64,000 bases of DNA, taken from Deltaproteobacteria bacterium. GTDB taxonomy: Bacteria; Desulfobacterota; Syntrophobacteria; BM002. The stretch is taken from positions 155-64,154 of the forward strand of contig JAJDNL010000239.1 of the NCBI GenBank assembly GCA_022340745.1. The letters are read 5' to 3'. Position numbers and translations under genes: made by a program. The notes below the pieces were generated by a model. That model worked only from the letters and a program-made list of their open reading frames with translations, searched no databases and was not told the origin of the DNA. Shown here piece by piece: positions 3,328-61,678 of this stretch; position 1 is the first letter of the stretch; the number at the start of each line of letters is the position of its first letter.

Positions 3328-3896
3328 AAAATCTTTTCGCCGCCAAATGCTTAAAATACCGTCCCGCCCTGCCCTCTCCAAGTGGATTCCCCACCTGTAT
3401 CTGCAGCGCCAAGCCTCAGCCTAAGCGCTCTGCGCACCAGCAGGCTGCTGAAAAACTCAATATTTTGACTATGAGCATCAGGTCCGTCATTCCGGAAGGC
3501 GCGAAGTCCGCCTGCGGCGGAGAATCCAGTAAAAAAACAGCCCACTGGATACCGGATCTCGACTTCGTCTCGTCGGGTATGACGTTTGGGATTGTTTCCA
3601 GGATTTTTTAGCAGTCTGCAGGGAGCTTCAATATCGAATAAGGAATTTCGAACAGCAGAAGTTTCTAGAAAAAGTAAGACAATGTTTTTCACTTCGATAT
3701 TCTGCGGTTCATATTCTCGAAGACTGGATAGCTGATACTTGAGTGCTGACCGGGGAGACTGATCCGATTTTATGGCTCCTCCAGGGGCTGCCCAGAGCTG
3801 AGTTTTTGGAGCAGGATTTTTTACTCGCAACAAAGCGTTGGCTAAGGGAAGATAAGGGAATATCCCAAAACTTCCAAGGTGTGGTTACGCCTCCGG

Positions 3897-4700: not shown

Positions 4701-5165
4701 GTGCATAACCCCTAAACTCCCTGATCTCCTGGTTTCATATTTCTGCAGGGTTTGCTGGTCAAGACAATCCCTTGACCGACAAAAGTGTTCGGGAGAAGTC
4801 ATTATTTTTTTACGTTTCGCGGAAATCATAAGGTCGTTGATCTGGCATGTCAAGATCGAGCATAAAGTACGGGGGATTAGGAAGTAATTGAGGATTTCGC
4901 TTCGGGTCATGTGGCTGCGCCGTCATTAGATCATCACGCTTCGCTGTCATTTGTTGTAAGAGGTAGAGGAAGATTGCAGCTTGATGAAAGGCGCAAGGCG
5001 GTAGAAGACTAAATTCTTCCCCTGCGCCCTGCGCCTTGAGCCGTATGCCTCTCTGAATTCTGCCTACTGACTACTATCTACTGGATTCCTTGATTTTGAA
5101 TTGCGGATGGGGGATTGAGCCTTTGAGATATTGGTCCTTCGGACTCCCCACCCTTCTTGGGAATT

Positions 5166-7594: not shown

Positions 7595-7680
7595 AGAAAT
7601 TGAGGGATTGAGGAGCACCGGTCTTTTTGAGAGAGTCTGGTGCAACGAGAGTAATGCAGTACTGCAAAATATAAGCTTCC

Positions 7681-7780
7681 AAGCACAAAATCTGAAGGTG
7701 TCGGGTGTCAGGTGTCAGGTGTCAGTGAGGAAAACAAAAAAACTGAAACCTGAACACTGAAACCTGAAACCTTCTCTACA
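7681..7780. repeat. heptamer-built hairpin element (family D): (GTGTCAG)3 arm / A-rich loop / (CTGAAAC)n arm
   Basis: AAGCACAAAATCTGAAGGTGTCGGGTGTCAGGTGTCAGGTGTCAG...AACTGAAACCTGAACACTGAAACCTGAAACC; arms are imperfect reverse complements. Ends 5 bp before the dxr GTG start. Confidence 0.7.
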
Positions 7781-8964: not shown

Positions 8965-9309
8965 CAGAGTCATTGCGGATTTGGCCTTGCGTCATTTCTT
9001 CGCGCTCGCTCCGCTCCGCTCAGGCCCGCAAGCGGGTCCCTAGTTTGGTTGCGCTGTCATTGGGCCACTACGCTGCGCTGTCATTTGTTGTAAGAGGGAT
9101 AAGATCGCGGCTACCCTTCGACAAGACTTGTCGACGAGCTCAAGTCGTGTCGCTCAGGATGGGGGATGCCCTGGGCATTGGCCCAAAAACTGCATTGGAA
9201 CTACTCGTCCACTTGGTTGGCAACAGCTTTTGGCCACGTTATAATGCAAAAGAAATTTTTGCTCTTATATTAATAAACAACATGAACTGAATAGAGGAGT
9301 TAATTAATC

Positions 9310-17163: not shown

Positions 17164-17336
17164 TAGCCCGGATATTTCATGAAATATCCGGGCTCAATCT
17201 ATTCCCCTCCCAGGTAGTATCCAGGAAGGGGAAATTTTTCTTTACAGTGGGGTCAACTGCTTGGTGGTGTCACCACTTGCGGCTGACACCACCGTGATGA
17301 ATGTTAGCCCGGATATTTCATGAAATATCCGGGCTA
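17164..17336. mobile_element. MITE-A compound copy: two minimal 31-bp perfect palindromes flanking a 110-bp hairpin-rich core
   Basis: TAGCCCGGATATTTCATGAAATATCCGGGCT occurs at 17164-17194 and again at 17305-17336. The segment between them contains a 10-bp stem (GGTGGTGTCA...TGACACCACC). Lies 9 bp upstream of the leuC start. Confidence 0.7.
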
Positions 17337-23210: not shown

Positions 23211-23711
23211 ATGAAAGACAAAAGAGTCACCGTCTATGCCGGATCTTTTGACCCTATCACCAACGGTCATCTGGACTTACTGGACCGAGCCCTCAAGATC
23301 TTCGACAACATCATCATCGCAGTTGCTGAAAATCCAGCAAAACAGCCGCTTTTTACTCTTGAAGAACGTCTTGACCTCATCCGCGCAAGTCTAAAGAACC
23401 ATCAAGAGCCCGAGCGTATTAGGGTGGACAGCTTTAAGGGACTGCTCGTGGACTACGTTGAGCGCTGCGGCGCTATGGCCATTCTCAGAGGACTGCGGGC
23501 CGTAAGCGACTTTGAGTATGAGTTTCAAATGGCCCTTATGAATCGAAAGCTAAGCCGCAAGCCGGAAACCCTGTACCTGATGACAGGGGCTCGCTGGATC
23601 TACATCTCATCCAGAATAATCAAGGAGGTAGTGCAGGCGGGGGGTGGTGTGACCGGCCTGGTGCCAGAGGCGGTAGAGAAAAAGTTGCGTGAAAAATTCG
23701 AGATTGACTAG
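23211..23711 (+). CDS. coaD: phosphopantetheine adenylyltransferase
   Basis: 166 aa; YAGSFDPITNGHLDL nucleotidyltransferase motif. Its TAG stop at 23709-23711 is the first three bases of a MITE-A terminal repeat. Confidence 0.95.
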   Translation: MKDKRVTVYAGSFDPITNGHLDLLDRALKIFDNIIIAVAENPAKQPLFTLEERLDLIRASLKNHQEPERIRVDSFKGLLVDYVERCGAMAILRGLRAVSDFEYEFQMALMNRKLSRKPETLYLMTGARWIYISSRIIKEVVQAGGGVTGLVPEAVEKKLREKFEID

Positions 23712-23728
23712 CCCGGATGTTTCATAAA
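23709..23728. repeat. solo MITE-A terminus overlapping coaD stop codon
   Basis: TAGCCCGGATGTTTCATAAA; the TAG is the coaD stop. Followed by unrelated hairpin-repeat modules. Confidence 0.65.
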
Positions 23729-24003
23729 TTGCCTTTGTGAGACCCTCTAACCGGAGACCCGCCCCAAAGGGATTGAGACTGAGCGCAGCGAGCGCGAAGA
23801 AGAAGGGTGTGCCACAGAAGCGACGATCACAGAACGCGGATTAAAATTTTCCTGAAAAGCTCGTGAGAACCAGAGATCTAATGGCGCAATGTGAACTCTT
23901 ACATTCAATATCATCAATTGTAGTCAAAAATCCGAAACCGGGAACCCGCCCGGAGGGTGGGAGTCCGAAGGACAAATTCGCAATCCGCAATCCGAAATCA
24001 GGC

Positions 24004-25596
24004 TTGCTTATTATTCTGCTGGTCAGTATCGCCTTGAACCATTGCGGACTTTCTGGAATCAACAGTTGGGACAGCCAGGTGCGCGGTTCGGACCAGATGC
24101 CGGACAGTATCCGACACCTGGTGCAGAAGCTCGCCACAAAAAGTAAGAAAGTCGAAAACCACACCGGTCTGGCCATTACCTATCCTTATGATGGAGCTGT
24201 TTTTCCTCCTGAGATTGCAGCACCTGTTATCGTATGGGAAGACGCCAATGCGGCTTCGAACCACTGGCTTATCGTGGTCGAATTCAGCAGCCAACGCAGT
24301 CCGATTTACGCTATTGCTGACGAGCAGGGCTGGGCACCGGACCAATCGATCTGGGAGGCCGTCAAAGCCAACTCAGTCCGCGCTCCTGCGAAAATAACCG
24401 TTTACGGTTTTGACCTCCAACATTCCGACACCATCGTCGCCAAGAACAGCATCCGCATTTCCACTTCAAAAGATCGTGTTGATGCCTCAATATTTTACCG
24501 ACAGGTCCAGCTCCCATTTAAAGTAGGGAAGAAGAATTTTAAAAAGCTAAAGTGGCGCCTTGGTGATATCTCTTCATATGAAAAACCGCCAGTTGTCATG
24601 GAAAATCTTCCTGTTTGTGCAAGCTGTCATCTTTTTTCAAAAGACGGCACTTTAATCAGCATGGAGATGAACTACAAGGAGGACAGTGGCGCTCATTTTA
24701 TCACGTCGGTCAGGGAGAATATTGAGTTGTCTGCAGAGGATTTCATGAGCTGGAATGATTTCCCCAGGCCGGAACTTCTGCCAAAAACCAGGGGCCTGTT
24801 TGCCAAGATATCGCCCAGCGGAAAATACATGGTGAGTACGGTACATGAGATATCCTATGCCGCCCTGACCAATAATTTTGCTTTCTGCCAGCTCTTCTTC
24901 CCAACCTACGGCGTGCTGGCCTGGTATTCGGTTGACAACAGGGAGTTTCATCTCCTTGCCGGAGCTGATGATTATGACTTTGTCCAGACTGACCCCAGCT
25001 GGAGCTGGGATGAAAAGTATATTGTCTTTGCCAGGTCAACCACCAAAAACGACTACCATGAAGACATCACAAACATCCACACCCATATCGAGGATGCCGA
25101 CATTCAGGAACTGAATGAAAAATTTCCCATCCAGTTTAATCTTTACAGGATGCCGTTCAATCAAGGAAAAGGCGGGATACCAGAGCCCTTAAAAGGTGCA
25201 AGTCACAACGGCATGAGCAACTATTTTCCAAGATATTCGCCGGACGGCAAGTGGATTGTCTTTACCCGCAGCAGGACCGGCATCATGCTCCAACCGGATA
25301 GCGAACTCTTTATTATACCGGCAGCCGGAGGCGAGGCTCGAAGGATGCGTTGCAACCGTGAGCTTTTCAATTCCTGGCACAGCTTTTCGCCCAATGGGAA
25401 ATGGATGCTTTTCAGTTCCAAGGCCAATACTCCTTTTACCGAAATCTTTCTGACCCACATTGATGCCAACGGGGTTGACAGTCCCCCGGTATGTTTATCC
25501 CGTTTCAGCGATGACCACTATGCCGCCAATGTGCCGGAGTTTGTCAATATTGGGCCCGGGGCGATCAAGAAGATAAAGATTTCGGCTCAGCGCTGA
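24004..25596 (+). CDS. exported CXXCH-motif protein with C-terminal TolB-like (PD40) beta-propeller
   Basis: Single C-A-S-C-H haem-c binding motif mid-protein (PVCASCHLF). C-terminal repeats YFPRYSPDGKWIVF / SFSPNGKWMLFSS are PD40/TolB-like. Hydrophobic N-terminus. Start uncertain: the ORF opens at 23863 but its first 140 nt are occupied by a dispersed hairpin repeat, so 24004 (TTG) is my best guess. Confidence 0.5.
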   Translation: MLIILLVSIALNHCGLSGINSWDSQVRGSDQMPDSIRHLVQKLATKSKKVENHTGLAITYPYDGAVFPPEIAAPVIVWEDANAASNHWLIVVEFSSQRSPIYAIADEQGWAPDQSIWEAVKANSVRAPAKITVYGFDLQHSDTIVAKNSIRISTSKDRVDASIFYRQVQLPFKVGKKNFKKLKWRLGDISSYEKPPVVMENLPVCASCHLFSKDGTLISMEMNYKEDSGAHFITSVRENIELSAEDFMSWNDFPRPELLPKTRGLFAKISPSGKYMVSTVHEISYAALTNNFAFCQLFFPTYGVLAWYSVDNREFHLLAGADDYDFVQTDPSWSWDEKYIVFARSTTKNDYHEDITNIHTHIEDADIQELNEKFPIQFNLYRMPFNQGKGGIPEPLKGASHNGMSNYFPRYSPDGKWIVFTRSRTGIMLQPDSELFIIPAAGGEARRMRCNRELFNSWHSFSPNGKWMLFSSKANTPFTEIFLTHIDANGVDSPPVCLSRFSDDHYAANVPEFVNIGPGAIKKIKISAQR

Positions 25597-25610
25597 GCGC
25601 AAAGCGTGAA

Positions 25611-25697
25611 GTAAACAGTAAACGGTGAACGGTAAACCGATCATGCGCTGGCTCCGCGACTGTTTACCGTTTACCATTTACCGTTCTTTCTTTTTTT
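25611..25697 (+). terminator. rho-independent terminator-like hairpin built from GTAAAC(A/G/C) heptamers
   Basis: GTAAACAGTAAACGGTGAACGGTAAACC ... GTTTACCGTTTACCATTTACCGTT inverted arms followed by a TTCTTTCTTTTTTT tract; 15 nt after the stop of the CXXCH/PD40 gene. Confidence 0.55.
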
Positions 25698-25786
25698 CGC
25701 TATGCGCCATGCGCTATGCTCTATGCGATCTGACCTGGCCCTGAGGACCAGGTCTGCTACTTTGAATCAAAGACGGGAGTTAATCT

Positions 25787-28207
25787 ATGAAAAGAGCTAG
25801 TGTCTATTTTATCCTGACACTGATCATTGTAGCCGGATGCAGTGCCTACAGGACTGCACAGTTTAAAAGGAGATATGGGCCGGTTCGTACTGTGGATCGG
25901 ACTGTCAGTTCTCATAAATCAGGTGAGATCTCTTTTTATGATGAGGTGCAGCCCATCCTGGAGCGTCGCTGTGATGTGTGCCACGGCTGTTATGATGCGC
26001 CCTGCCAGCTGAAGCTCACCTGTTATGAAGGGCTCGAGCGGGGCGGTACCACAAAGCTGGTTTACGATAGTGCCAGATTGAGACCGGATAAGCCGACCCG
26101 GCTATTTGTTGATGCAAATTCAGTGGAAGAATGGCGCCAGATGGGTTTCCACCCTGTTCTCAACGAGAGGGATCAGACCCCGCCGGCAAATCTCGAAAAC
26201 TCGGTGGTTAATCTGATGCTGCAGCTGAAAAAAGAGAATCCCCTGCCGGAGACGGAACTTCTGCCGGCCAGTTTTGATATCAGTCTTGACAAAAAACAGA
26301 ACTGTACAACTGCGGAAGATTTCAGTGAATACAAGAAGAAATATCCTCTCTGGGGAATGCCGTATGCGCTGCCCGGACTGACCGACAAGGAGCATAAGAC
26401 AATCGTAGAATGGTTGAGACAGGGGGGATTGATTACTCCGCGACCACCCATGTCGGCCAATGCCAAAAAAATTATAAACCAGTGGGAGGAATTCTTTAAC
26501 GGAACGTCGCTGAAGCAGCAGCTTGTATCACGCTATATTTATGAACATCTGTTTATCGCCCATATCCATTTTGACGACCTGCCGGACCGGGAGTTTTACC
26601 GGCTGGTTCGATCCAAAACACCTCCAGGAGAACCGGTGGTTGAGATCAATACAGCCAGACCCTATGACGATCCCGGGGTTGAGAAATTCTACTATCGGTT
26701 TCGTCCAATAGAAACAACCATTGTGGCAAAAAATCACACTGTCTATCGGATGAATAGACAAAAAATGGAACTCTACCGGGAGCTCTTCCTGCAGGACGAT
26801 TATGAGGTAAACAAGCTGCCGTCCTATGATCTCAAAACAGCCTCCAATCCGTTTAAGGCTTTTGCGGATCTGCCCGCTATTTCCCGTTACAAGTTCTTGC
26901 TGGATGATGCCCAGTTCTTCGTCATGGGCTTTATCAAGGGGCCTGTTTGCCGTGGCCAGATTGCCCTCAACGTTATTAACGACCACTTCTTTGTTGCCTT
27001 TTTTGATCCGGAAAAAGACATCATCAGCAATGATACCGCCTTTCTTGCCAGTGTGAGTGATTATCTGGACTTACCTACCAGCGGGGAAAATAAACTAAAT
27101 ATCACGATCCTTTGGACTGACTATCAGGATAAACAAAAAAAATATCTGGCTGCCAAGGGAGAGTATCTTGCCAAACTGGATCCGGCCAAAACGGGGAATG
27201 ATATAACTCATATTTGGAACGGTGACGGCCACAATAGAAATGCGTTGTTAACGATTTTCAGACATTTTGACAGTGCCAGCGTGGTAAAGGGTTTTGTGGG
27301 AGACACACCCAAAACCGGCTGGGTGATTGACTATCCGCTTTTTGAAAGGATCCACTATCTGCTGGTTGCCGGTTTCAACGTGTTTGGCAATGTGGGACAT
27401 CAACTAGAAACTCGGCTTTATATGGACTTTCTCCGCATGGAGGGAGAGAATAATTTCTTGAGCTTCCTGCCAAAGGATAAGCGCGTCGAGGAACGGGCAG
27501 ATTGGTATAAGGGCGCCAGGGCCGAACATAAGATTCACCTGGAGGACCCTCTTCGGGGGCTTCAATGGGACACCGGAATTGTCTACACAACAAACGATCC
27601 CAAAAAGGAATTTTTTGAGCAGATCATTGAGCATGCAGGTCCGGCTGCCGGTCCGAAGGACTACTTGAACCGCTGCCCTGAGAAAAACTGTGTTGATAAG
27701 AATACAGGGCCACTTGAACAAAGAGCGGACTTGGCCCTGCAAAAGGTGACCGGGAAGCGCGGCCCTGAGATACAGGTGGTCCAGGATGTGGCCTTTATTC
27801 ATGTGGTTACCGGTAACAAGGATAATGACCTCGCCTATACCGTTATCCGCAACAAGGCTTTGAGCAACAATTCATTCATGTTTGGTGAGGAGAGAAGGCG
27901 CATTGTTGAAGACGACACCCTTACCATAGTCAAGGGTTATGTGGGCAACTATCCAAACTCATTCGTCCGAGTAAACCTAGACGAAATAGAGGAGTTTGTT
28001 GAAAGTTTTCTCAAAATCAGGGATCAACTCAGCTATTACAATGTCGCCAGAAAGTATGCCATTAGAAGAACCAGTCCCAATTTCTGGGAGGAGGCAGACT
28101 GGCACTACCAGAAATATCTCAAGGACGAACCGGTGGAAGCAGGGCTATTTGATATGTATCGTTTCAATCGGATTGCAGAGAAATCTGATGCGGAGTTTAC
28201 ATGGTAA
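25787..28207 (+). CDS. cti: fatty acid cis/trans isomerase (CTI family), periplasmic haem-c lipoprotein
   Basis: 806 aa. Lipoprotein signal MKRASVYFILTLIIVAGC. N-terminal CDVCHGCYDAPCQLKL (CXXCH) and overall size match Pseudomonas/Vibrio Cti as I recall it. No search was run. Confidence 0.6.
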   Translation: MKRASVYFILTLIIVAGCSAYRTAQFKRRYGPVRTVDRTVSSHKSGEISFYDEVQPILERRCDVCHGCYDAPCQLKLTCYEGLERGGTTKLVYDSARLRPDKPTRLFVDANSVEEWRQMGFHPVLNERDQTPPANLENSVVNLMLQLKKENPLPETELLPASFDISLDKKQNCTTAEDFSEYKKKYPLWGMPYALPGLTDKEHKTIVEWLRQGGLITPRPPMSANAKKIINQWEEFFNGTSLKQQLVSRYIYEHLFIAHIHFDDLPDREFYRLVRSKTPPGEPVVEINTARPYDDPGVEKFYYRFRPIETTIVAKNHTVYRMNRQKMELYRELFLQDDYEVNKLPSYDLKTASNPFKAFADLPAISRYKFLLDDAQFFVMGFIKGPVCRGQIALNVINDHFFVAFFDPEKDIISNDTAFLASVSDYLDLPTSGENKLNITILWTDYQDKQKKYLAAKGEYLAKLDPAKTGNDITHIWNGDGHNRNALLTIFRHFDSASVVKGFVGDTPKTGWVIDYPLFERIHYLLVAGFNVFGNVGHQLETRLYMDFLRMEGENNFLSFLPKDKRVEERADWYKGARAEHKIHLEDPLRGLQWDTGIVYTTNDPKKEFFEQIIEHAGPAAGPKDYLNRCPEKNCVDKNTGPLEQRADLALQKVTGKRGPEIQVVQDVAFIHVVTGNKDNDLAYTVIRNKALSNNSFMFGEERRRIVEDDTLTIVKGYVGNYPNSFVRVNLDEIEEFVESFLKIRDQLSYYNVARKYAIRRTSPNFWEEADWHYQKYLKDEPVEAGLFDMYRFNRIAEKSDAEFTW

Positions 28208-28322
28208 TTCGGGGATCGCTAGGAAGTAATCAGTGCGCCGTGAGCGCTCATAATACAACAGACCAGCATAAAGAGATGGAGAAACTACATTTACCTGGTG
28301 GCAAGCTTATTGTGGGGAAGTG

Positions 28323-28772
28323 CTACTGCCGTCTCTTTTTGCGGACAAAATAGTCAGCCAGGATCTGTGCATGATCGAAAGCCAGTGGTGAAGGCAGATC
28401 TTTTTCAGTAAACACCCCCACCTCTCTGGCATCGTCTCTGGCCTGCGGTTCACCTCCGGCTCGGGCCAAAAAAACTACAGTAATAGTGTGGTGTCTCGGA
28501 TCGCGGTCGGGCGCAGAGTAAGCACCGAGTTGCCCGAGTAACTCCACATCCAAAGAGGTCTCTTCTCGGGCTTCCCGCCGGGCCGCCTCCTCAAGAGATT
28601 CGCCGTAATCCACAAACCCGCCCGGTATGGCCCAGCCATGGGGCTCATTGGCCCGCTGAATCAGGATAATCCCCTTGTCTCCCAGCTCAATGATGATGTC
28701 CACTGTGGGCAAGGGATTTCTATATCTGGATATCAGCTCACCACAGTGCGGACAGGCAAGACCCTTCATCAT
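28323..28772 (-). CDS. NUDIX hydrolase with N-terminal zinc ribbon
   Basis: Nudix box [24 protein letters not shown]; N-terminal CPHCG Zn-ribbon. Confidence 0.8.
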
Positions 28773-30601: not shown

Positions 30602-30675
30602 GAGGTTTCAGTGTTCAGGTTTCAGCTTTTATTGCTGTATTTCCTGACACCTGACACCCGACACCTGAAACCTCC
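30602..30675. repeat. family D heptamer hairpin element copy, inverted orientation
   Basis: GAGGTTTCAGTGTTCAGGTTTCAG...CCTGACACCTGACACCCGACACCTGAAACC. Together with a partial copy at 30058-30100 it brackets the FKBP-like gene. Confidence 0.6.
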
Positions 30676-30805
30676 ACAAAAGCCCGCAATCTTCACCTAC
30701 AACCCTGCCACGGGCGGGAGTCACCTGGTCTCCGGTGCACAATGATTTGCTTTTTTCTTGACTTGCCGCTACTATCTGACGGTCATCAACGAAAAGGGAG
30801 TAAGT

Positions 30806-31306
30806 ATGGCGAGGCTAGGGACTGTGCAAAAAAAAATATCTTTGTTTACCATGATCGTGACGATGTCCATTACTTTTTCTTTCCTTTCCGCCGCAAATGT
30901 TAGAGGCGGCAATCTCATGGATCTCACGTTGGTGGATGTGGATGGGAAGAAGGTGAGTCTCGATCAGGTGGCTGGGGACCAACTGCTCCTGCTTTATTTT
31001 TGGGCTACCTGGTGTAAGCCCTGTCGAAAAGCACAACCCAAGGTTGCCGCACTTGCCGAAAAATATAAGGACATGGTTAAGGTGGTGGGAATTAATGTGG
31101 GAGAATTGGATTCGCCAAAAGATATAAAAAAATATATTTCCCGTCAAAAGATCACCTACACCATGTTAATTGACCACAACGATGAGGCAGTGAAAAAGTT
31201 CTCCGTTGCTGCCATCCCAGTGATTATCCTTTTGGATGAAACCGGTAAAATCTTGTTCCGCGATCATGAGCCGCCGGCAAATCTGGATAAGTTCTTCTCT
31301 GAATAG
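30806..31306 (+). CDS. TlpA/ResA-like thiol-disulfide oxidoreductase (thioredoxin fold), exported
   Basis: WCKPC active site inside LLLYFWATWCKPCRK; N-terminal signal/anchor; RBS AAGGGAG upstream. Its TAG stop is the first three bases of a solo MITE-A terminus. Confidence 0.7.
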   Translation: MARLGTVQKKISLFTMIVTMSITFSFLSAANVRGGNLMDLTLVDVDGKKVSLDQVAGDQLLLLYFWATWCKPCRKAQPKVAALAEKYKDMVKVVGINVGELDSPKDIKKYISRQKITYTMLIDHNDEAVKKFSVAAIPVIILLDETGKILFRDHEPPANLDKFFSE

Positions 31307-31323
31307 CCCGGATGTTTCATGAC
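31304..31323. repeat. solo MITE-A terminus overlapping stop codon of TlpA-like gene
   Basis: TAGCCCGGATGTTTCATGA; the TAG is the stop of the 30806-31306 CDS. Confidence 0.65.
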
Positions 31324-31448
31324 TTGCAGTAAGCCCATGTTCGATGACATTACAATTGAAGCTCCCTGAGTTCATGGTTCAGACTTCCAAAAAGAGTTAG
31401 CTCAGCCCATTTGGCAGCAAGATTCTCTAATAAGGTGGAAAGCACACT

Positions 31449-31655
31449 ATGACTATGCCTTTACTGATTGCCAGTATTTTGGCGGGAATTTTGGTGACCT
31501 GTGTAGGTATTTACCGTGCTTACAACCAGGGCGAGTTCATGCCCCTGGTCTTGGGCATGCTAATATTAATGAGTTGCGCAGCTAATTACCTCAAACGGCT
31601 TACCAAAAAAGAAGACGGGGAAGACCAATCCACAGATGAGGCGGCAAACGGTTAG
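31449..31655 (+). CDS. small membrane protein, hypothetical
   Basis: 68 aa ORF with two predicted TM helices; no recognisable family; sits between two MITE-A copies. Confidence 0.3.
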   Translation: MTMPLLIASILAGILVTCVGIYRAYNQGEFMPLVLGMLILMSCAANYLKRLTKKEDGEDQSTDEAANG

Positions 31656-31689
31656 ACCGAATCGACGATTTTACCTTTGTTCTGCTGGC

Positions 31690-31873
31690 TAGCCCGGATA
31701 TTTCATGAATGACTTGCTGCGACCACGGATATGCACGTCCTTCCTGGCGTCCTCGGATGTCGGCCCCTGCAACGTACGGTACAGGTACGCCTCGGAACCG
31801 ACACCCTGCGGTTGCCAGGTTGCACGCCCATCTTCGTGGTCTCGCGACAGCAATTCATGAAATATCCGGGCTA
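31690..31873. mobile_element. MITE-A copy (184 bp), terminal inverted repeats TAGCCCGGATATTTCATGAA
   Basis: Perfect 20-bp TIRs; internal nested inverted repeat (TTGCTGCGACCACGG...CTCGCGACAGCAA). Core shares GTACGTCGCA...CGACACCCGAGGACGCC...ATATCCGCGGTCGCAG blocks with the other copies. Confidence 0.75.
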
Positions 31874-32646
31874 GGTTTCAAGGCGGTGACCAGCATACGT
31901 TTGTTGAGAAGACCGTAATCGTCGGCCTTTGGGTGAGAAACCAGAAGACCACCACAGTCGATTTGCTGGAAGCCGCTTTCAGTGAGGAGCGCTTCCATAT
32001 CTTGGGGCTGGAAAAGCCGGGCAAAGTAGCGAACATCTCGGATAAGACCACGTTCTTTACTCAAAACAATTTCCCTCACCAAAACCCCTTCGTCTTGTAG
32101 TTGACGTTCCCGACATACCACCACATCTTCATTGGCCTCGTGCCAACTGCTGGGCTTGAATTGCCGGCGCGCGTAGTCGCTGTGGATTAAGTCAAGGAGC
32201 ACCCTACCGCCTGGTTTCAACAAGCGGCGGATCTCTCGAAGTATCTCCTGGTTCTGGCTGTCTTCTTTGAAGTAACCAAAGGAATTTCCCATAACCAATA
32301 CCACGTCAAAGCTTTCGTCCGCCAACCCTACCCTACAGGCATCACCGCGACAGAAATGTATCGAGGAGTCGATTTTCGTGGCAGCGTGAGAACCCACTTC
32401 TAACAATACCTGCGAGTAGTCAACCACCATCACATTTCTGTAGCCGCGCCTGGTCAACTCGATGGCATGTCGCCCTTGACCGCCACAAAGGTCGAGAATG
32501 AGATCGTCAGTCCTGAGGCTGAGAGTGGCCTCAACCATGTCGACCTCGGTAGCTGTTACTTCCGGGCAACACACACTACGAGCGTCAGTTACAAGATACG
32601 TCTCGTCAAAAATATGTTGCCACCAAGTGGGATCATATTCATCCAT
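31855..32646 (-). CDS. class I SAM-dependent methyltransferase
   Basis: Motif I VLDLCGGQGRHAIEL and motif post-I/II (LKPGGRVLLD). Confidence 0.75.
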   Translation of the reverse strand: MDEYDPTWWQHIFDETYLVTDARSVCCPEVTATEVDMVEATLSLRTDDLILDLCGGQGRHAIELTRRGYRNVMVVDYSQVLLEVGSHAATKIDSSIHFCRGDACRVGLADESFDVVLVMGNSFGYFKEDSQNQEILREIRRLLKPGGRVLLDLIHSDYARRQFKPSSWHEANEDVVVCRERQLQDEGVLVREIVLSKERGLIRDVRYFARLFQPQDMEALLTESGFQQIDCGGLLVSHPKADDYGLLNKRMLVTALKPSPDIS

Positions 32647-32923
32647 AACTACCTCTCCACTGCCGGGAGGGGGCTAACCATTTGGTAACAGAGGGGGATT
32701 CTGTCTGCGCAGTCAGAAAATCCCAAATCCGAATATCTAAATCCTAATGACCAAAACTAAGAATGATTCTATTTGTGCAATTTTGTTTTGAACATTGGAA
32801 AATTGGGATTTAGAATTTGTTTCGAGCTTCGGATTTAGGATTTCGGATTTATTATCTGCCGTTTTCGGCTCGAAATTCGGAATTCGAAACTTACGCTTCT
32901 TTCGAGAGAAGTTGCTTCCCGCA

Positions 32924-34312: not shown

Positions 34313-34339
34313 AGATACCTCCCTCGTTCGTGTCCACCC

Positions 34340-34424
34340 GAATGTCGGGTGTCAGGTGTCAGGTGTCAGGGAAGAAAAACAAAACAACTGAAACCTGAAC
34401 ACTGAAACCTGAAACCTCTTCTAC
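34340..34424. repeat. family D heptamer hairpin element copy
   Basis: GTCGGGTGTCAGGTGTCAGGTGTCAGGGAAGAAAAACAAAACAACTGAAACCTGAACACTGAAACCTGAAACC; immediately upstream (5' side) of the ATP-grasp gene on the other strand. Confidence 0.7.
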
Positions 34425-34520
34425 CGACAAAGACATTGAACTATGACCCCCGCAAGGCGGGATCGTGGACTGGCCCCAAGGACCAGGTTTTCGATGTTAA
34501 ATAAGTGCTGACTAACCAGT

Positions 34521-36188: not shown

Positions 36189-36420
36189 TCGTGCTATTTT
36201 ATTGAGGTTATGAATTCCGAAATGAGAAACACGAAGCACGAAACAAATTCAAAATTCAAATTTTCCAATATTCAAAACAATTTCTTTCCGGAAAGCAATT
36301 ACCATTTTGGCCATTTGGATTTCGAAAATTTGAAAATTGTTTCGGATTTCGATATTCGGATTTCGGAGTTTGAAACTATCGCTGCGGATCTGGGACACCT
36401 TCTGGTTACCAGCGATCATT

Positions 36421-37515: not shown

Positions 37516-37707
37516 CTAGAGCCGCTCCAAAGTGTTTTATTTGTTCATCTTATATCATAATAACAAGGAATTGTATAGTGAAAGTGGTCACTCCCCTGTA
37601 CTCATCAGCCATGCGATAGCCTGCTGGAGTAATGGAGTGGCGAAGCATTGCAGAATATCAAATTGGTCCTTCGGACACCCCACCCTGCGGGCGGGTCCCC
37701 GGTTTCC

Positions 37708-37786
37708 AAGCACAAAATCTCTGGGTATCAGGTGTCGGGTGTCAGGGAAGAAAAACAAAACAACTGAAACCTGAAACCTCCTCTAC
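37708..37786. repeat. family D heptamer hairpin element copy
   Basis: AAGCACAAAATCTCTGGGTATCAGGTGTCGGGTGTCAGGGAAGAAAAACAAAACAACTGAAACCTGAAACC. Confidence 0.7.
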
Positions 37787-38041
37787 CGGCACAGCCATTG
37801 AACGCTGACTTGGCCCCAAGGTCTAAGTTTTCATCTTGAAAATGCTCCAGCGAGCGCATTCCCCGTAGCGACACGACTTGAGCGACACGACCTGAGCTCG
37901 TCGACAGGTCTCGTCGACAGGTCTTGCTGCAGGGAGCTTCAATAAATAGAGGAGCTCCCGACAAGGTAATTCTGTGTCTTGACGATTGTTTATGCTAAAA
38001 TGTTGCGGTCTTTTCTACTGATCTAGTCTTGGAGGTAATGT

Positions 38042-40158: not shown

Positions 40159-40422
40159 TAGCCCGGATTTTTCATGAATTGCTGTCGCGAGACCGAGAGA
40201 CTGGGAACCCGCTTGCGGGACTGAGCGGAGCGCAGCGAGCGCGAAGAGGATGGGTGTACCACCGGGAAACCGCAGGGGGTTGGATCTGAGGTGTACTTGA
40301 ACAGTACGTCGCAAGATCCGACACCCGAGGACGCCCGGCTTCCGGCTCGGAGAGCCTACAGCTCGGAGAGAAGGACAGTCATATCCGCGGTCGCAGCAGG
40401 CAACTCGTGAAATATCCGGGCC
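40159..40422. mobile_element. MITE-A copy (264 bp)
   Basis: TAGCCCGGATTTTTCATGAA ... TCGTGAAATATCCGGGCC termini; core blocks GTACGTCGCAAGATCCGACACCCGAGGACGCCC and ATATCCGCGGTCGCAG shared with the 47315 and 56645 copies. Confidence 0.7.
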
Positions 40423-46816: not shown

Positions 46817-46836
46817 CAGCCCGGGTATTTCATGAA
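46817..46836. repeat. solo MITE-A terminus (CAGCCCGGGTATTTCATGAA) upstream of porG
   Basis: Sequence identity to the MITE-A TIR; 36 bp upstream of the porG start on the opposite strand. Confidence 0.5.
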
Positions 46837-46919
46837 TCACTTGCCGCTTTCCTATTTCTACGGTAGATTCCTAGAGGTGGAAATAACCACTCCTTTATTA
46901 CCGGTTGAGAGCGTTGGAT

Positions 46920-47333
46920 ATGTCTGAAAGACTGATAGAGAAAATCGCCCTGCCAAACGGTTTGATTCTAGAAATCTGGGACACATCTCACCTCATGGCG
47001 GGCGACAGATGGTTGGTCTCGCTTCTCGCCAAGGTGGAAGTCACTGTCTTGCCCGAGTACTTCTCTCCACTTGACGATGGCGAACAGGCTTACCAAGATC
47101 TGGTCGCCGCCCATGGCAACTCTCTGGTTTTTACCCAGGAAAAAGTGAGACTTTTCGTGGATAAAGGCGAAACCAAAGAGGTGCTCACCAGACTGCGCCG
47201 GAGCATCAAGGACAATCTGGCAGCATATCTCGGCAACCCCAAATTTGCCTCGTCTTACGTACTGAAAAAATATGGCGACCTCCGAGATCGCCAGAATTGG
47301 GGCGCCGCCCCCCCTAGCCCGGATGTTTCATGA
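46920..47333 (+). CDS. hypothetical protein, 3' end defined by MITE-A insertion
   Basis: ORF with no family recognised. Its last codons and its TGA stop lie inside the MITE-A left terminus (…GCC CCC CCT AGC CCG GAT GTT TCA TGA). Confidence 0.35.
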   Translation: MSERLIEKIALPNGLILEIWDTSHLMAGDRWLVSLLAKVEVTVLPEYFSPLDDGEQAYQDLVAAHGNSLVFTQEKVRLFVDKGETKEVLTRLRRSIKDNLAAYLGNPKFASSYVLKKYGDLRDRQNWGAAPPSPDVS

Positions 47334-47550
47334 AAATGCTATAGCGAGCGCGTCCTCCGTAGCGACTCGACCTGAGCGACACGACCTGAGCTCGTCGACA
47401 GGTCTCGTCGACAAGTCTTGCTGCGGGGTTAGCGAGCGAATTACAATAAAACGGTACGTCGCAAAGTGCGACACCCGAGGACGCCCAGAAGGACGCCTAT
47501 ATCCGCGGTCGCAGTCCGCCGTAGGCGGAATTCATGAAACATCCGGGCTA
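47315..47550. mobile_element. MITE-A copy (236 bp)
   Basis: TAGCCCGGATGTTTCATGAA ... TTCATGAAACATCCGGGCTA termini; same core blocks. The left TIR supplies the last codons and TGA stop of the upstream ORF 46920-47333. Confidence 0.75.
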
Positions 47551-47824: not shown

Positions 47825-48211
47825 CCACTGTTCACCTCTCTTTCACCATAAAAAAAGCCCTTTTCACAGGGCCCAGCCGCAACTTTCTTTGGCATGAATC
47901 GTTGTAAGGAACTGAACCTCTTCATGGTCTCAGAAGTTATCTACCAAAGCAATCGTGCTGCTGCAGTCCCCTATCAACTTTTTATCTAACATATCCTCTT
48001 GGCAGTGGCAACCCCGCACCCCTCAGGAGTTACTCCATTCCTTTGCTCACTTGGCAGATGATAGGTTGAACCGCAGAATATCGAAGTGAAAAACATTGTC
48101 TTATTTCTTTCAAAAACTTCTGCCGTTCGAAATTCCTCGTTCGATATTCACAAACGACTATTTACTTCACTCCGTATTATAGCGACCCAAGGAAGGCTGA
48201 TTGAATATCTA

Positions 48212-48440
48212 CCACAGAGGCACAGAGATCACGGAGGAGGTTGTTTTTTCCCTGGCCGGGAGACGACGGCCAGGGAAAAGAGCCTCCGCCTTCGGCGAAA
48301 GCTCCTTAACTGGTTCCAACCGATGACATCAAACCACCGGGTTACTTGATCGTGCCCGCAGGGCTGCGATCTTTTGCCCGATCGCCGTCTCCCGATCGGG
48401 CAAAAAAAATATTCCCTCTGTGCTCTCCGTGTCTCTGTGG
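48212..48440. mobile_element. MITE-B copy 1 (229 bp), TIR CCACAGAGGCACAGAG
   Basis: Termini CCACAGAGGCACAGAG...CTCTGTGCTCTCCGTGTCTCTGTGG. Internal hairpins (CCCTGGCCGGGAGACGACGGCCAGGG; TTTTGCCCGATCGCCGTCTCCCGATCGGGCAAAA). About 90 percent identical to the reverse complement of copy 2. Confidence 0.75.
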
Positions 48441-48561
48441 TTAGTAAATAAAAGTGGATATCGAAATCTAGTATTGATAGCATGCGCAGCTGAGGGAATA
48501 GGCGTTATTCAAAATTGAAAACAGGCTGAATCCCGCTTTAATCATAACTGAAAGTGCGGCA

Positions 48562-51759: not shown

Positions 51760-51864
51760 ACAGCATGGCTTACTCAAAGCTGAGAATCACTTTACCAAAA
51801 CGCCCATGCCATTAACTCCGCATACCATGGATACTAGATTTCGATATGCACTTTTATTTACTAA

Positions 51865-52094
51865 CCACAGAGACACGGAGAGCACAGAGGGAACCATTTC
51901 TCTTGCCCGATCGGGAGACGGCGATCGGGCAAGAGATCGCAGCCCTGCGGGCACGATCTAGTAACCGGGTGGTTCATGCCTACGGTTGGATCTAGGCTAA
52001 AGAGCTTTCGCCGCAGGCGGAGGCTCTTTTCCCTGGCCGTCGTCTCCCGGCCAGGGAAAAAACAACATCCTCCGTGTCCTCTGTGCCTCTGTGG
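51865..52094. mobile_element. MITE-B copy 2 (230 bp), inverted relative to copy 1
   Basis: CCACAGAGACACGGAGAGCACAGAG...CCTCTGTGCCTCTGTGG; same internal hairpins in reverse orientation. Confidence 0.75.
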
Positions 52095-52209
52095 TAAATT
52101 TTCACTCAGGCTTCATTAGGCCGCAACCACACGGAGCAGAGTAAATAGTCGTTTGCAAAATCCGATTAGCAGAAAAGATTCAAACATTAGGGGATTGGGG
52201 GAGCAAAAT

Positions 52210-56644: not shown

Positions 56645-56828
56645 CAGCTCGGATGTTTCACCAATTGGTGTCGCGAGACCGCAATGATGAGTGTGCCACC
56701 GGGCAACCACAGGGTGTCGGATCCGAGGCGTACTTGAACAGTACGTCGCAGGGTCCGACACCCGAGGACGCCCGGGAGGACGATCATATCTGCGGTCGCA
56801 GCAGGTGATTCGTGAAATATCCGGGCTA
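56645..56828. mobile_element. MITE-A copy (184 bp) with degenerate left terminus
   Basis: CAGCTCGGATGTTTCACCAA ... TTCGTGAAATATCCGGGCTA; core nearly identical to the 40159 copy (GTGTACTTGAACAGTACGTCGCA...GGTCCGACACCCGAGGACGCCCGG). Confidence 0.7.
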
Positions 56829-56912: not shown

Positions 56913-57662
56913 ATGACCGACACCGCGAGATTCAAAAAAGGCGCCACCATCATCCACGAAGGAACCACCGGTTCTAACGCCTATCTCATTCTTTCGGGCT
57001 CGGTGGAGGTGTACAAAAAAGTTGGAGATGAAAAGCTGGTACTGTCCAGATTAGTAAAGGGCAACATTTTTGGGGAAATGAGCCTTGTGGATGACAAACC
57101 TCGCTCCGCGACTATTGCTGCCTTGGAAGATACCGAAGTGAGAATCTTGAGCCGCGAGCGCTTTGAGTCCATGTTGGAGCAAAACCCTCGCGCCGTTATC
57201 CCGCTACTCAAACAGGTTTTTCAGCGCGTCAGATATTTGAACCAGATGGTAACGGCATTCTGTGGTCAAGCCAGCACCGGGACCGTGGAATTGGCGACTC
57301 ATCCTCTTCGGCTAACGGCCAAAACTGAAGAGGCCGAACAAGCCATGCAGGGCAAGGAGATAGATATCAGCAAAATACCCTTTCAAATTGGCAGGACCTC
57401 TACCAGCAGCGTGTTTGGCTCTAATGATTTGAACATTGAAGACACAGAGCCATATCGGATTTCTCGATGCCATTGCCTGATAACCATTGTGGATAACGAA
57501 TATTATGTGGTTGATACGGTAAGCAGCCGCGGAACCGTGGTTGACAGCAGTAAAATCGGAGGCCGAGAAGACCTGAAGCGAGTATTACTTGCAAGTGGCA
57601 AACATCAGATTATCCTGGGTGGCGAAGAGTCACCGTATGTGTTTGATCTTGAAGTTCCCTAG
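56913..57662 (+). CDS. cyclic-nucleotide-binding domain / FHA domain protein
   Basis: N-terminal cNMP-binding fold (GNIFGEMSLVDDKPRSATIAA). C-terminal FHA (IGRTSTSS...ISRCHCLI...YVVDTVSSRGTVVDSSKI). Its TAG stop is the first three bases of a MITE-A terminus fragment. Confidence 0.75.
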   Translation: MTDTARFKKGATIIHEGTTGSNAYLILSGSVEVYKKVGDEKLVLSRLVKGNIFGEMSLVDDKPRSATIAALEDTEVRILSRERFESMLEQNPRAVIPLLKQVFQRVRYLNQMVTAFCGQASTGTVELATHPLRLTAKTEEAEQAMQGKEIDISKIPFQIGRTSTSSVFGSNDLNIEDTEPYRISRCHCLITIVDNEYYVVDTVSSRGTVVDSSKIGGREDLKRVLLASGKHQIILGGEESPYVFDLEVP

Positions 57663-58082
57663 CCCGGAGAGATTTTAGATTTGTCCTGCGGACTCCCACC
57701 CTTCGGGCGGGTTCCCAGTTTTAGAATGCAGATTTCAGATTTAAAAGCTCAAGACCTTCTAGTGAAGAATGCATTCACCTCAATCTGCAATCTCCAATCT
57801 GCAATCATAAATCTAAAGAGACTGGCCCTGAGACCAGGTTTTCTACGACTAAATAAGATCTAATTCCCCCCACTCCCCCCATACAAAGTGGTAATTTATT
57901 TCCACTTTGTTACCTTTACTTCCCAAAAATTACCTCGCAGTTTTCCCATAAGATCTTTTTAACTATTTGGAATCGTAGAGAAATTTAAAAGATTGCCTTT
58001 TGGCACGGTCTTTGTTTATCAAGGCTTCACTGAGCAAATTAACTCATGCTGACGCCGACAAGGAATGGTACGAGAAGTCCGT

Positions 58083-61215: not shown

Positions 61216-61600
61216 AGTTGATCATCTGCTAAATACCAGACTCGATTGTTATATGGACTCAGCCCTAAAGAGTTATGTAAATTTTTTAGGAGGCATCAAT
61301 CGCTCTGAGTTTCAGGTAATTTCTGGATTAGGTTGTGGCTAACCCAAGACTTATTATCTACATTGCATAGCAGTTTGTCGAAATTTTATATAGCATACTT
61401 TAATCCACCGTGTACCGCTTGAGAACCAGATACCATATGGTGGAGCAACCAAACCATGCTCCAGCGCTCCTGGAAATTCCACCAAGACTAAGCTGCCAGC
61501 CGCTGACCAATTCTCGAGGGGTTAACGTCAGGAGCAGTAAAGAATCCGGGCCCATCGAAGATCCCGCTGTGCGTAAAAGGAGCCCAGCACTTTACGGTTT

Positions 61601-61678
61601 GTCCTGCGGACTCCCACCCTACGGGTGGGTTCCCGGTTTGTCCTGCGGACTCCCACCCTACGGGTGGGTTCCCAGTTT
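61601..61678. repeat. two tandem 39-bp hairpin units GTCCTGCGGACTCCCACCCTACGGGTGGGTTCCC(G/A)GTTT
   Basis: Each unit contains a CCCACCC-TACG-GGTGGG stem-loop. Related single units at 57683-57722, 37663-37700, 5128-5160 and, reverse-complemented, at 23936-23974. Confidence 0.7.

What the first reader, a model, noticed from the sequence alone, without database searches (positions are those of the whole stretch)
23709..23728. MITE-A terminus repeatedly coincides with gene stop codons (coaD, TlpA-like, cNMP-FHA, and ORF 46920-47333)
Three genes (coaD at 23709, TlpA-like at 31304, cNMP-FHA at 57660) end with a TAG that is the first three bases of the MITE-A terminus TAGCCCGG. A fourth (46920-47333) reads 7 codons into the terminus and stops at the TGA inside TTCATGAA. 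Four such overlaps in one window are unlikely by chance. They imply one of three things. The element may target stop-codon-like sites such as TA or CTAG. Insertions may have truncated or extended C-termini and been fixed. Or the element may act as a 3'-end/terminator module selected at gene ends. Any of these would be an interesting, testable property.
Basis: seen in the sequence. Interest (0 to 1): 0.75.

Follow-up and report, generated by a model that had tools for sequence, protein, structure and literature searches.

The report
Mobile element that lands on stop codons
A small non-coding mobile element inserts at the sequence Y-TA-R and begins with G, so it rebuilds a TAG stop codon wherever it lands on a gene's own TAA/TAG stop; this explains why its ends so often coincide with gene ends, a tidy but mechanistically ordinary property of a known transposon family.

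Summary
coaD (23709), the TlpA-like gene (31304) and the cNMP-FHA gene (57660) all end in a TAG made of a flanking TA plus the first G of the MITE-A end GCCCGGATNTTTCAYGA. ORF 46920-47333 reads into an end and stops at its TGA.

MITE-A is a non-autonomous derivative of an ISPa33-like IS1380-family insertion sequence. About 1.57-kb elements with the same 17-nt ends encode IS1380 transposases. Across 508 ends, the flanks are T at -2 (83%), A at -1 (89%) and C or T at -3 (88%). The target is therefore YTAR, mostly CTAG, with TA on both sides.

The coincidence replicates outside the window:
- Genome set: 32 of 119 insertion sites have an ORF of at least 100 aa ending exactly at TA+G, against 9 and 9 in the other two frames.
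- Metagenome set: 24 of 156, against 6 and 5.
- Baseline: about 7-10% of tolerated YTAR sites are stop codons.

Filled and empty orthologous sites show native TAA stops hit exactly (prs, cNMP-FHA, TlpA-like). They also show small C-terminal remodelling (methyltransferase, ORF142, perhaps coaD).

Target specificity plus purifying selection explains the pattern. A selected terminator role is neither needed nor supported.

The parts
23211..23711 (+). coaD (phosphopantetheine adenylyltransferase). Its TAG stop at 23709-23711 is the flanking TA plus the first G of the MITE-A end.
   Evidence: Pfam PF01467, 1.2e-25; sequence.
23711..23816 (+). Truncated MITE-A copy. It keeps only the 'End B' side, which carries a nested secondary repeat as in the copy at 40161. 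The far end is missing.
   Evidence: 19-mer match with 2 mismatches; 81% identity to 40160-40195 (D1); compared by eye.
30758..31306 (+). TlpA-like thiol:disulfide oxidoreductase. Its TAG stop at 31304-31306 is TA plus the G of a solo MITE end.
   Evidence: Pfam AhpC-TSA/Redoxin. The orthologue in L129 has the same length after PPANL and ends in TAA.
31306..31333 (+). Solo MITE-A end of about 28 nt, GCCCGGATGTTTCATGACTTGCAG..
31692..31871 (.). Full MITE-A copy of 180 bp, flanked by TA at 31690-31691 and 31872-31873 inside CTAG...CTAG.
   Evidence: (I1). It folds as one long hairpin of -99.6 kcal/mol, z -9.9. It is 92% identical to copies in the Syntrophobacterales MAG loci L049 and L011.
31855..32646 (-). 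SAM methyltransferase that reads 5 codons into the right MITE end (..KP SPDIS) and stops at the TGA of TTCATGA.
   Evidence: Empty orthologue L128 ends AAA CCT AGC TAA (KPS*). L129 has a separate end in the opposite orientation at AAA CCC TAG|CCCGG.
17166..17193 (.). 28-nt perfect palindrome made of two fused 14-nt MITE-A ends. It has TA on the left (17164-17165) and TC on the right, and lies in the intergenic region 5' of leuC.
   Evidence: (I23). Identical palindromes occur in L040, L052 and L098.
17307..17334 (.). Second 28-nt fused-end palindrome, flanked by TA on both sides.
40161..40421 (.). Full MITE-A copy of 261 bp with a nested secondary repeat. It has TA on the left and a decayed right flank (CG). 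Intergenic.
46819..46847 (+). Solo MITE-A end in the divergent promoter region between porG and ORF142. It is conserved in relatives L131 and L133, so it is old.
46920..47333 (+). Conserved hypothetical protein (ORF142) whose last 5 codons and TGA stop are supplied by the MITE end.
47317..47548. Full MITE-A copy flanked by TA (47315-47316 and 47549-47550). Its left interior is replaced by another repeat family (D8).
   Evidence: The same insertion in L133 ends the gene at TAG (132 aa), and the empty site in L131 gives 134 aa.
56647..56826 (.). Full MITE-A copy in the divergent region upstream of the cNMP-FHA gene. The left flank is CA (decayed TA) and the right flank is TA.
   Evidence: Empty sites in L135 and L137 carry a single CTCTAGAAAA here.
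56913..57662 (+). cNMP-binding/FHA protein. Its TAG stop at 57660-57662 is TA plus the G of a MITE remnant.
   Evidence: Pfam. 116 of the 120 listed orthologues are 249 aa, and the 15 commonest C-terminal variants, 100 of the 120, all end in VP or IP.
57662..57667 (+). 6-nt remnant (GCCCGG) of a MITE-A end, left after loss of the rest of the element.
   Evidence: The window and L135 read CCC TA GCCCGG AGAGA. The empty allele L136 reads CCC TA A AGAGA.

Best explanation
MITE-A is a non-autonomous deletion derivative (about 180-265 bp, plus decayed fragments) of an ISPa33-like insertion sequence of the IS1380 family.

How it produces the pattern:
1. The cognate transposase integrates at the short palindromic target 5'-Y-TA-R-3', with CTAG preferred, and leaves TA on both sides.
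2. The element's first base is G (GCCCGG...CCGGGC). Each flank therefore reads TAG when read inward on either strand.
3. A second stop, the TGA in TTCATGA, lies 5 codons in, in the next frame.
4. A TAA or TAG stop codon preceded by a pyrimidine is itself a perfect YTAR target.
5. It is also the only position in a gene where insertion is silent: NNY TAR becomes NNY TA[G...C]TA R, so the protein is unchanged.
6. Insertions elsewhere in genes are purged, and insertions in promoter regions are often purged.
7. The surviving copies are therefore enriched at stop codons.
8. A minority landed a few codons from the end and were tolerated as small truncations or extensions.
9. Later decay of the element cannot remove the G, because the gene now depends on that TAG. 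This leaves remnants such as TAGCCCGG at 57660.

Shown: the family assignment, the target profile, the enrichment and frame bias, and the filled-versus-empty sites.

Inferred: that TA is duplicated by the transposase, and that purifying selection rather than active recognition of gene ends produces the roughly 2-3 fold excess over YTAR availability.
For: Family:
- About 1.57-kb elements bounded by the same 17-nt ends in L058, L026, L024, L012, L116 and L013 encode IS1380 transposases (NF033539, 416 bits; PF13701, 550 bits).
- The named relative ISPa33 has ends TA|ACCCGGATTTCTCATGA.

Target:
- Over 508 ends, position -1 is A in 89%, -2 is T in 83% and -3 is C or T in 88%. There is no signal beyond -4.
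- TA lies on both sides in 115 of 175 pairs.
- Tandem copies share a single TA (L026 and L058).

Enrichment:
- Genome set: 32 of 119 sites have an ORF of at least 100 aa ending at TA+G, against 9 and 9 in the other frames (p=9e-6). The YTAR baseline is about 10% (p=1.5e-7).
- Metagenome replicate: 24 of 156, against 6 and 5 (p=2e-5), with a 7.4% baseline.
- In paired frame-A cases the base after the far TA is G or A in 34 of 36. The pre-insertion in-frame codon was therefore TAG or TAA, the native stop.

Filled versus empty sites:
- prs: CAC TAA in the window and L128, against CAT TA|GCCTGG.. in L129 and L130.
- cNMP-FHA: CCC TAA in L136, against CCC TAG CCCGG in the window. 116 of the 120 listed orthologues are 249 aa.
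- TlpA-like: the tail has the same length as the TAA-ending orthologue.
- Methyltransferase: the site was hit in opposite orientations in the window and in L129.
- ORF142: 134 aa empty, 132 aa filled.
Against: - coaD, the flagged locus, does not clearly fit the 'native stop' version. The closest MITE-free relative (L122, 96% aa identity) runs two codons further (..IDSA TGA) and has no TA at the site. coaD tails are hypervariable in this clade.
- The ORF142 insertion was at a non-canonical CTAC site inside the reading frame.
- No perfectly clean filled/empty pair shows one TA becoming two, because the flanks have diverged. TA duplication is therefore inferred.
- As I recall from ISfinder (not checked here), the IS1380 family is described with 4-5 bp duplications, not 2 bp.
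- The baseline of 'tolerated' YTAR sites rests on crude ORF-based gene calls.
- The residual 2-3 fold excess could also reflect real preference for gene 3' ends.
Confidence: 0.8

Rival explanations
1. The MITE is retained at gene ends because it works there. Its long hairpin would act as a transcription terminator, an RNase III site or a 3'-exonuclease block, so selection would favour copies placed directly after stop codons.
For: - The full copy 31688-31875 folds into one continuous hairpin of -99.6 kcal/mol, z -9.9.
- Insertions on stop codons exceed the YTAR-availability baseline 2-3 fold.
- Comparable roles have been proposed for Correia/NEMIS elements (PMC2229807).
Against: - All three TAG cases in the window are truncated single ends of 108, 28 and 6 nt, which cannot form the hairpin.
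- No T-tract terminator was found downstream of coaD.
- Five of the 10 window sites are intergenic (four lie 5' of a gene or in a divergent promoter region, one follows no nearby gene end).
- The frame bias (A far above B and C) is predicted by stop-codon targeting, not by a 3'-UTR structural role, which would be indifferent to frame.
Confidence: 0.12
2. The element does not seek stop codons. It lands anywhere near gene 3' ends and supplies a new stop (TAG or TGA) that truncates or extends the protein, and the coincidence reflects tolerance of C-terminal remodelling.
For: - Methyltransferase: KPS* becomes KPSPDIS*.
- ORF142: 134 aa becomes 132 aa through an in-frame TAC target, then a 1-nt loss gives SPDVS*.
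- coaD is two codons shorter than its closest MITE-free relative.
- Two of the three inward frames stop within 6 codons of the end.
Against: - In 34 of 36 paired frame-A cases the reconstructed pre-insertion codon is TAG or TAA, so the stop was already there.
- The prs, cNMP-FHA and TlpA-like proteins keep exactly the orthologous length.
- If remodelling were the rule, frames A and B should be similar, yet A:B is 32:9 and 24:6.
Confidence: 0.06
3. The overlaps are coincidental. TAG is simply the commonest stop codon in this lineage, and MITE ends happen to begin with TAG.
For: TAG makes up 30 of 61 stops in the window and 36-39% in relatives. Within the window alone, 3 of 10 against a 10% baseline is not significant.
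Against: - Two independent replicate sets give p=1.5e-7 and a frame bias of p=2e-5.
- TAGCCCGG occurs 12 times against 1.5 expected.
- Filled and empty alleles exist at the same codon.
Confidence: 0.02

Closest known systems
ISPa33 and related IS1380-family insertion sequences
   Same: - The terminal sequence is of the same type: TA|(A/G)CCCGGAT(T/A)T(C/T)TCATGA.
- TA lies on both flanks.
- Full-length relatives with ends identical to MITE-A encode NF033539/PF13701 transposases.
   Different: - MITE-A has no transposase gene and is 180-265 bp. No IS1380 transposase is encoded in the window.
- Its interior is unrelated to the IS interior.
- The 2-bp TA flank differs from the 4-5 bp duplications I recall being listed for the family (memory, not checked).
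TA-duplicating bacterial MITEs mobilised by IS630/Tc1-mariner-type transposases (RUP of S. pneumoniae, Correia/NEMIS of Neisseria)
   Same: - Small palindromic elements with TA at their ends.
- They fold as long hairpins.
- They lie mostly between genes and are sometimes fused to ORF ends (PMC2229807, PMC5896051).
   Different: - The transposase family differs (IS1380, not IS630).
- I found no paper reporting a quantified excess on stop codons for those families.
Eukaryotic piggyBac transposons
   Same: IS1380 transposases are used as the prokaryotic outgroup of piggyBac (PMC10813416). From memory, not checked here: piggyBac also uses a short palindromic target with a central TA (TTAA, against YTAR here), and its ends also begin CCC...GGG.
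   Different: - As I recall, piggyBac duplicates all four bases (TTAA). Here only TA is common to both flanks; the outer Y/R are target preference and the inner G/C belong to the element.
- No experimental link was tested.
QMITE2 of Coxiella burnetii (C-terminal extension of enhC)
   Same: A MITE inserted at the 3' end of a gene supplies C-terminal residues or the stop codon (PMC5896051).
   Different: That is a single anecdotal locus. It involves no TA+G stop-regenerating end and no target-site explanation.

Membership tests
MITE derived from an IS1380-family (ISPa33-like) insertion sequence | Terminal inverted repeats match those of an autonomous IS that encodes the family's transposase. | tested here: met
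   The ends GCCCGGATATTTCAYGA bound elements of about 1.57 kb in L058, L026, L024, L012, L116 and L013 that encode IS1380 transposases. ISPa33 ends match at 14 of 17 positions.
MITE derived from an IS1380-family (ISPa33-like) insertion sequence | Small, non-coding and present in many copies. | tested here: met
   The window holds 4 full copies of 180-261 bp, plus 2 fused-end palindromes and 4 solo ends or remnants. There is no transposase homology in the window. More than 120 metagenomic contigs carry copies.
MITE derived from an IS1380-family (ISPa33-like) insertion sequence | Evidence of mobility, meaning filled and empty orthologous sites. | tested here: met
   prs stop: empty in the window and L128, filled in L129 and L130. 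ORF142: empty in L131, filled in L133 and the window. Upstream of cNMP-FHA: empty in L135 and L137, filled in the window.
   Only TA is shared by the two flanks. Four-base flanks differ in L049, L069 and L094, and in window copy 47315 (CTAG against CTAC). ISPa33 itself shows the same TA flanks, so this looks like a property of the clade and not a reason for exclusion.
MITE derived from an IS1380-family (ISPa33-like) insertion sequence | A cognate transposase is present in the same genome. | not testable with these tools
   The window has none and the rest of the source MAG could not be read. A full-length copy exists in a Thermodesulfobacteriota chromosome (L013).
IS630/Tc1-mariner-derived MITE (the usual source of TA-flanked bacterial MITEs) | Ends shared with an IS630-family element that encodes a DDE_3 transposase. 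| tested here: not met
   All full-length elements with these ends encode IS1380-type transposases (PF13701), not IS630-type.
Intrinsic (Rho-independent) terminator module | A GC-rich hairpin followed by a T-tract just after the stop codon. | tested here: not met
   There is no terminator-like site in 23600-24100. The fused-end palindromes are followed by CAATCT and AGATGA. The truncated ends at three genes lack a second arm.
Known structured RNA family (Rfam) | A match at the gathering threshold. | tested here: not met
   There are no Rfam matches in the whole window.

The most novel reading that the evidence does not exclude
Stop codons may be the adaptive niche of this transposon clade, not merely a survivorship pattern. 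On this reading the ISPa33-like IS1380 elements, prokaryotic relatives of piggyBac, evolved a YTAR target together with a G-first end that carries TAG and TGA in two inward frames. They could then settle silently on TAR stop codons in at least eight phyla while keeping a 17-nt end nearly invariant. As a by-product, they would convert TAA stops to TAG and lock them in place. This could contribute to the unusually high TAG usage seen here (30 of 61 stops in the window) and to the hypervariable C-terminal tails of genes such as coaD. Full copies might additionally be co-opted as 3'-end RNA structures.
Probability: 0.2. Interest if true: 0.6.

Novelty: new member of a known kind. Interest (0 to 1): 0.4.

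Why it matters
- It gives a simple, testable rule for where this widespread element family can live. It also explains recurrent annotation oddities: genes whose stop codon lies inside a repeat, short variable C-terminal tails, and orphan TAGCCCGG motifs after genes.
- It shows that an IS1380-family clade uses a 2-bp TA flank at a YTAR target, which bears on the family's relationship to piggyBac.
- It points to a possible mutational pressure from TAA to TAG in repeat-rich Syntrophobacterales-like genomes.
- It is not a new kind of system. The mechanism is target specificity plus selection.

Tried and rejected
1. The genome contigs pattern had only 15 fixed bases, so I expected about 500 chance hits. 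In fact about 75% of all matched ends (167 of 224, including near-matches) are preceded by TA, so they are real ends. A whole-genome census of the source was therefore not possible.
2. P0017, a coaD orthologue with the tail ..PPSPDHTRCT, looked like a MITE read-through. Its DNA (CCACCATCACCTGAC) is unrelated to the end, so I dropped this lead.
3. I sought a clean empty site for the two fused-end palindromes at 17164 and 17305 by aligning L129 and L130. The region has diverged too far to define one.
4. L122 does not serve as an exact empty site for coaD. The whole intergenic region has been remodelled and there is no TA at the site, so the ancestral stop position of coaD remains unresolved.
5. 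Two further stops followed by CCCG (ilvC-like at 15578, porG at 46179) were considered as old remnants. Relatives also use TAG there with a different or near-identical context, so this is inconclusive.
6. Literature searches for a described stop-codon bias of MITEs, or for IS1380 TA targeting, found nothing specific.
7. Rfam and the terminator scan were negative.

Full report
**1. What is in the sequence**

The motif TAGCCCGG occurs 12 times in the window, against 1.5 expected. The 19-mer AGCCCGGATATTTCATGAA occurs 14 times within 3 mismatches, against 0 expected. Reading each locus gives ten insertion sites:

| Site | Kind |
|---|---|
| 31692-31871, 40161-40421, 47317-47548, 56647-56826 | full copies |
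| 17166-17193, 17307-17334 | 28-nt palindromes, each two ends fused back to back |
| 23711-~23816, 31306-~31333, 46819-~46847 | solo or truncated ends |
| 57662-57667 | 6-nt remnant |

Gene identities were confirmed with Pfam: coaD (PF01467), a TlpA-like redoxin, a cNMP-binding/FHA protein and a SAM methyltransferase.

ORF 46920-47333 reads CCT AGC CCG GAT GTT TCA TGA. A fifth case was missed: the methyltransferase 31855-32646 on the minus strand reads into the other end of the full copy at 31692-31871, in the same frame, and stops at the same TGA.

**2. What the element is**

About three quarters of all ends matched within 2 mismatches are preceded by TA, most often cTA or tTA.

- In L058, L026, L024, L012, L116 and L013 the same ends bound elements of about 1.57 kb. 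These encode proteins of about 450 aa that match the IS1380 transposase models (NF033539, 416 bits; PF13701, 550 bits).
- The closest named relative found in annotated plasmids is ISPa33, at 57% aa identity. Its ends are TA|ACCCGGATTTCTCATGA.
- MITE-A copies 85-92% identical to those in the window occur in Syntrophobacterales and 'Deltaproteobacteria' MAGs.
- The window encodes no such transposase.

MITE-A is therefore a non-autonomous derivative of an ISPa33-like IS1380-family element. The source is a metagenome-assembled genome: coaD is found on ENA and JGI metagenome contigs, and ORF142 is 100% identical to an NCBI MAG protein on a 95.8-kb contig.

**3. Target site**

Base frequencies upstream of the terminal G over 508 ends:

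| Position | Result |
|---|---|
| -1 | A 89% |
| -2 | T 83% |
| -3 | C 61%, T 27% |
| -4 | weak pyrimidine bias |
| beyond -4 | no signal |

- Both flanks are TA in 115 of 175 paired ends.
- Four-base flanks are often unequal, for example TTAG...CTAG, or CTAG...CTAC at 47313 and 47547.
- Tandem elements share a single TA (L026 and L058).

So the element proper is GCCCGG...CCGGGC, the target is YTAR (CTAG favoured), and TA flanks both sides. Empty alleles carry one TA or CTAG where the element sits. The flanks have diverged too far for a textbook one-TA-to-two demonstration, so duplication is an inference.

**4. Is the stop-codon coincidence more than chance?**

For every TA-flanked end, I measured the ORF reading inward in each of the three frames. 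Frame A ends exactly at TA+G; B and C are the other two frames.

| Set | Sites | ORF >=100 aa in frame A | Frame B | Frame C | Frame test | Baseline |
|---|---|---|---|---|---|---|
| Genome loci | 119 | 32 (30 of 111 outside the window) | 9 | 9 | p=9e-6 | ~10% (p=1.5e-7) |
| Metagenome loci, MITE-A-specific pattern | 156 | 24 | 6 | 5 | p=2e-5 | 7.4% |

- The baseline is the share of YTAR sites outside coding sequence or on a stop codon that are stop codons. It comes from a crude greedy ORF map.
- The metagenome contigs are shorter, so that count is a lower bound.
- In the window alone, 3 of 10 is only suggestive.

The effect is real, general to this transposon clade, and about 2-3 fold above target availability.

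**5. Was the native stop there already?**

In paired frame-A cases the base after the far-side TA is G (28) or A (6) in 34 of 36. With a TA duplication, the pre-insertion in-frame codon was therefore TAG or TAA, which is the gene's own stop.

Orthologous loci reached through coaD, ORF142 and cNMP-FHA homologues give direct cases:

- **prs:** it ends CAC TAA in the window and in L128. In L129 and L130 it ends CAT TA|GCCTGGATATTTCATGAATCAC.., with a full MITE.
- **cNMP-FHA:** 116 of the 120 listed orthologues are 249 aa. L136 has CCC TAA AGAGA; the window and L135 have CCC TA GCCCGG AGAGA.
- **TlpA-like:** the window tail PPANLDKFFSE-TAG has the same length as L129's PPANLEKLLQG-TAA.
- **Methyltransferase:** L128 (empty) ends AAA CCT AGC TAA. 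The window has the MITE in the TA of CCTAGC, giving KPSPDIS*. L129 has an end of the opposite type at AAA CCC TAG|CCCGG. This is an independent hit or a local rearrangement.
- **ORF142:** empty alleles (L131) are 134 aa (..ETPEQ, TGA). The filled allele L133 is 132 aa (..ETP, TAG|CCCGG) and carries the same MITE as the window. The window has one base fewer in the C-run, so it reads on to SPDVS-TGA. The right flank, TA CAAATGA, implies a non-canonical in-frame TAC target.
- **coaD:** the closest MITE-free relative (L122, 96% aa identity) ends ..QIDSA-TGA, two codons further, with no TA at the site. coaD tails are hypervariable among orthologues of at least 85% identity. The flagged locus is therefore either a small truncation or a hit on a lineage-specific stop. 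This is unresolved.

**6. Mechanism and rivals**

The best explanation combines three things:

- YTAR/TA targeting by an IS1380-type transposase;
- a G-first end that rebuilds TAG;
- purifying selection that removes other intragenic insertions and many 5' insertions.

The internal TGA gives a second safe frame.

The terminator-module idea is not needed, for these reasons:

- The full copy does fold strongly (-99.6 kcal/mol, z -9.9).
- However, the three TAG cases in the window are truncated ends that cannot form that hairpin.
- No T-tract terminator is present in the scanned region downstream of coaD.
- Five of the ten sites are intergenic.
- A structural 3'-UTR role would not predict frame bias.

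Pure C-terminal remodelling explains a minority of cases. Chance is excluded by the replicate sets.

**7. Comparison with known systems and novelty**

The element works like other TA-flanked bacterial MITEs (RUP, Correia/NEMIS; PMC2229807), but it belongs to the IS1380 family, whose transposases serve as the prokaryotic outgroup of piggyBac (PMC10813416).

I found no paper that quantifies a stop-codon bias for bacterial MITEs or describes TA/YTAR targeting in IS1380. An anecdotal C-terminal fusion is known for QMITE2 (PMC5896051).

I rate it a new member of a known kind, with a neat and general property that had apparently not been tabulated.

**8. Caveats**

- Gene calls are ORF-based.
- The baseline of 'tolerated' sites is approximate.
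- The source genome outside the window was not available.
- The statement that IS1380 elements usually make 4-5 bp duplications is from memory.

Noticed in passing
window 57673-57721, 23935-23977, 61591-61678, 37656-37704, 5130-5154: A second small repeat family with the core GTCCTGCGGACTCCCACCCTTCGGGCGGGTTCCC. The copy at about 57680-57718 is a 39-nt insertion absent from the 96%-identical relative L135, which reads ..TTTTAGA|TTTTAGAATG there. It sits directly after the MITE-A remnant at the cNMP-FHA stop.
   Followed up: partly
window 23863-24000 (5' end of the PD40/Tricorn-like gene 23881-25596): Relative to L122, the lipoprotein-like N-terminus MKKKSILLIILL.. is replaced. In-frame sequence derived from repeat elements supplies a new ATG at 23881 and an N-terminal extension of about 40 aa. 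Repeats in this genome therefore also remodel gene 5' ends.
   Followed up: partly
window 31431-31615: The 68-aa small ORF between the TlpA-like gene and the methyltransferase is inverted relative to L128, L129 and L130, and the Zn-ribbon gene present in those relatives is missing. The inverted segment is bounded by MITE-A ends at 31304 and 31690, which suggests a MITE-mediated rearrangement.
   Followed up: partly
window 23712-28338: About 4.6 kb (PD40/Tricorn-like gene plus an 806-aa ORF) lies between coaD and the NUDIX gene. It is absent at this position in the syntenic loci L126, L128, L129 and L130. Its left border is the truncated MITE-A copy.
   Followed up: no
whole window (61 ORF-based genes): TAG is the commonest stop codon: 30 TAG, 16 TAA and 15 TGA. 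In relatives it is 36-39%. That is unusual for bacteria, fits a CTAG-preferring element, and is possibly reinforced by TAA-to-TAG conversion. Two further stops are followed by CCCG (15578 and 46179), but their status as remnants is inconclusive.
   Followed up: partly
window 48151-48518 and 51787-52155: Inverted repeats of about 370 bp (85-94% identical, in three blocks) flank a 3.3-kb segment with three ORFs. A further 82-nt arm at 48067-48148 matches 3630-3711.
   Followed up: no
window 47328-47428 and 37834-37934; 40200-40247 and 8997-9044: Other repeat families are nested inside MITE-A copies. One replaces the left interior of the copy at 47317, and another is inserted in the copies at 40161 and 23711. 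This shows serial insertion of small repeats into one another.
   Followed up: no
window 7677-7775, 30603-30676, 34328-34447, 37704-37809; 965-1152, 32718-32869, 36213-36365: Several more low-complexity intergenic repeat families (GGTGTCAGGTGTCAGG.., CTGAAACCTGAAACC.., AAATCCGAAATCCGAAG..) recur next to genes throughout the window.
   Followed up: no
L040, L052, L098, L026 (genome loci) and window 17166-17193, 17307-17334: The identical 28-30-nt fused-end palindrome GCCCGGATATTTCATGAAATATCCGGGC occurs in Desulfosudaceae and Gammaproteobacteria MAGs (L040, L052; L098's source was not listed). L026, an Alphaproteobacteria MAG, instead has two elements abutting across one TA. It may be a minimal mobile unit or a recurrent deletion product.
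   Followed up: no
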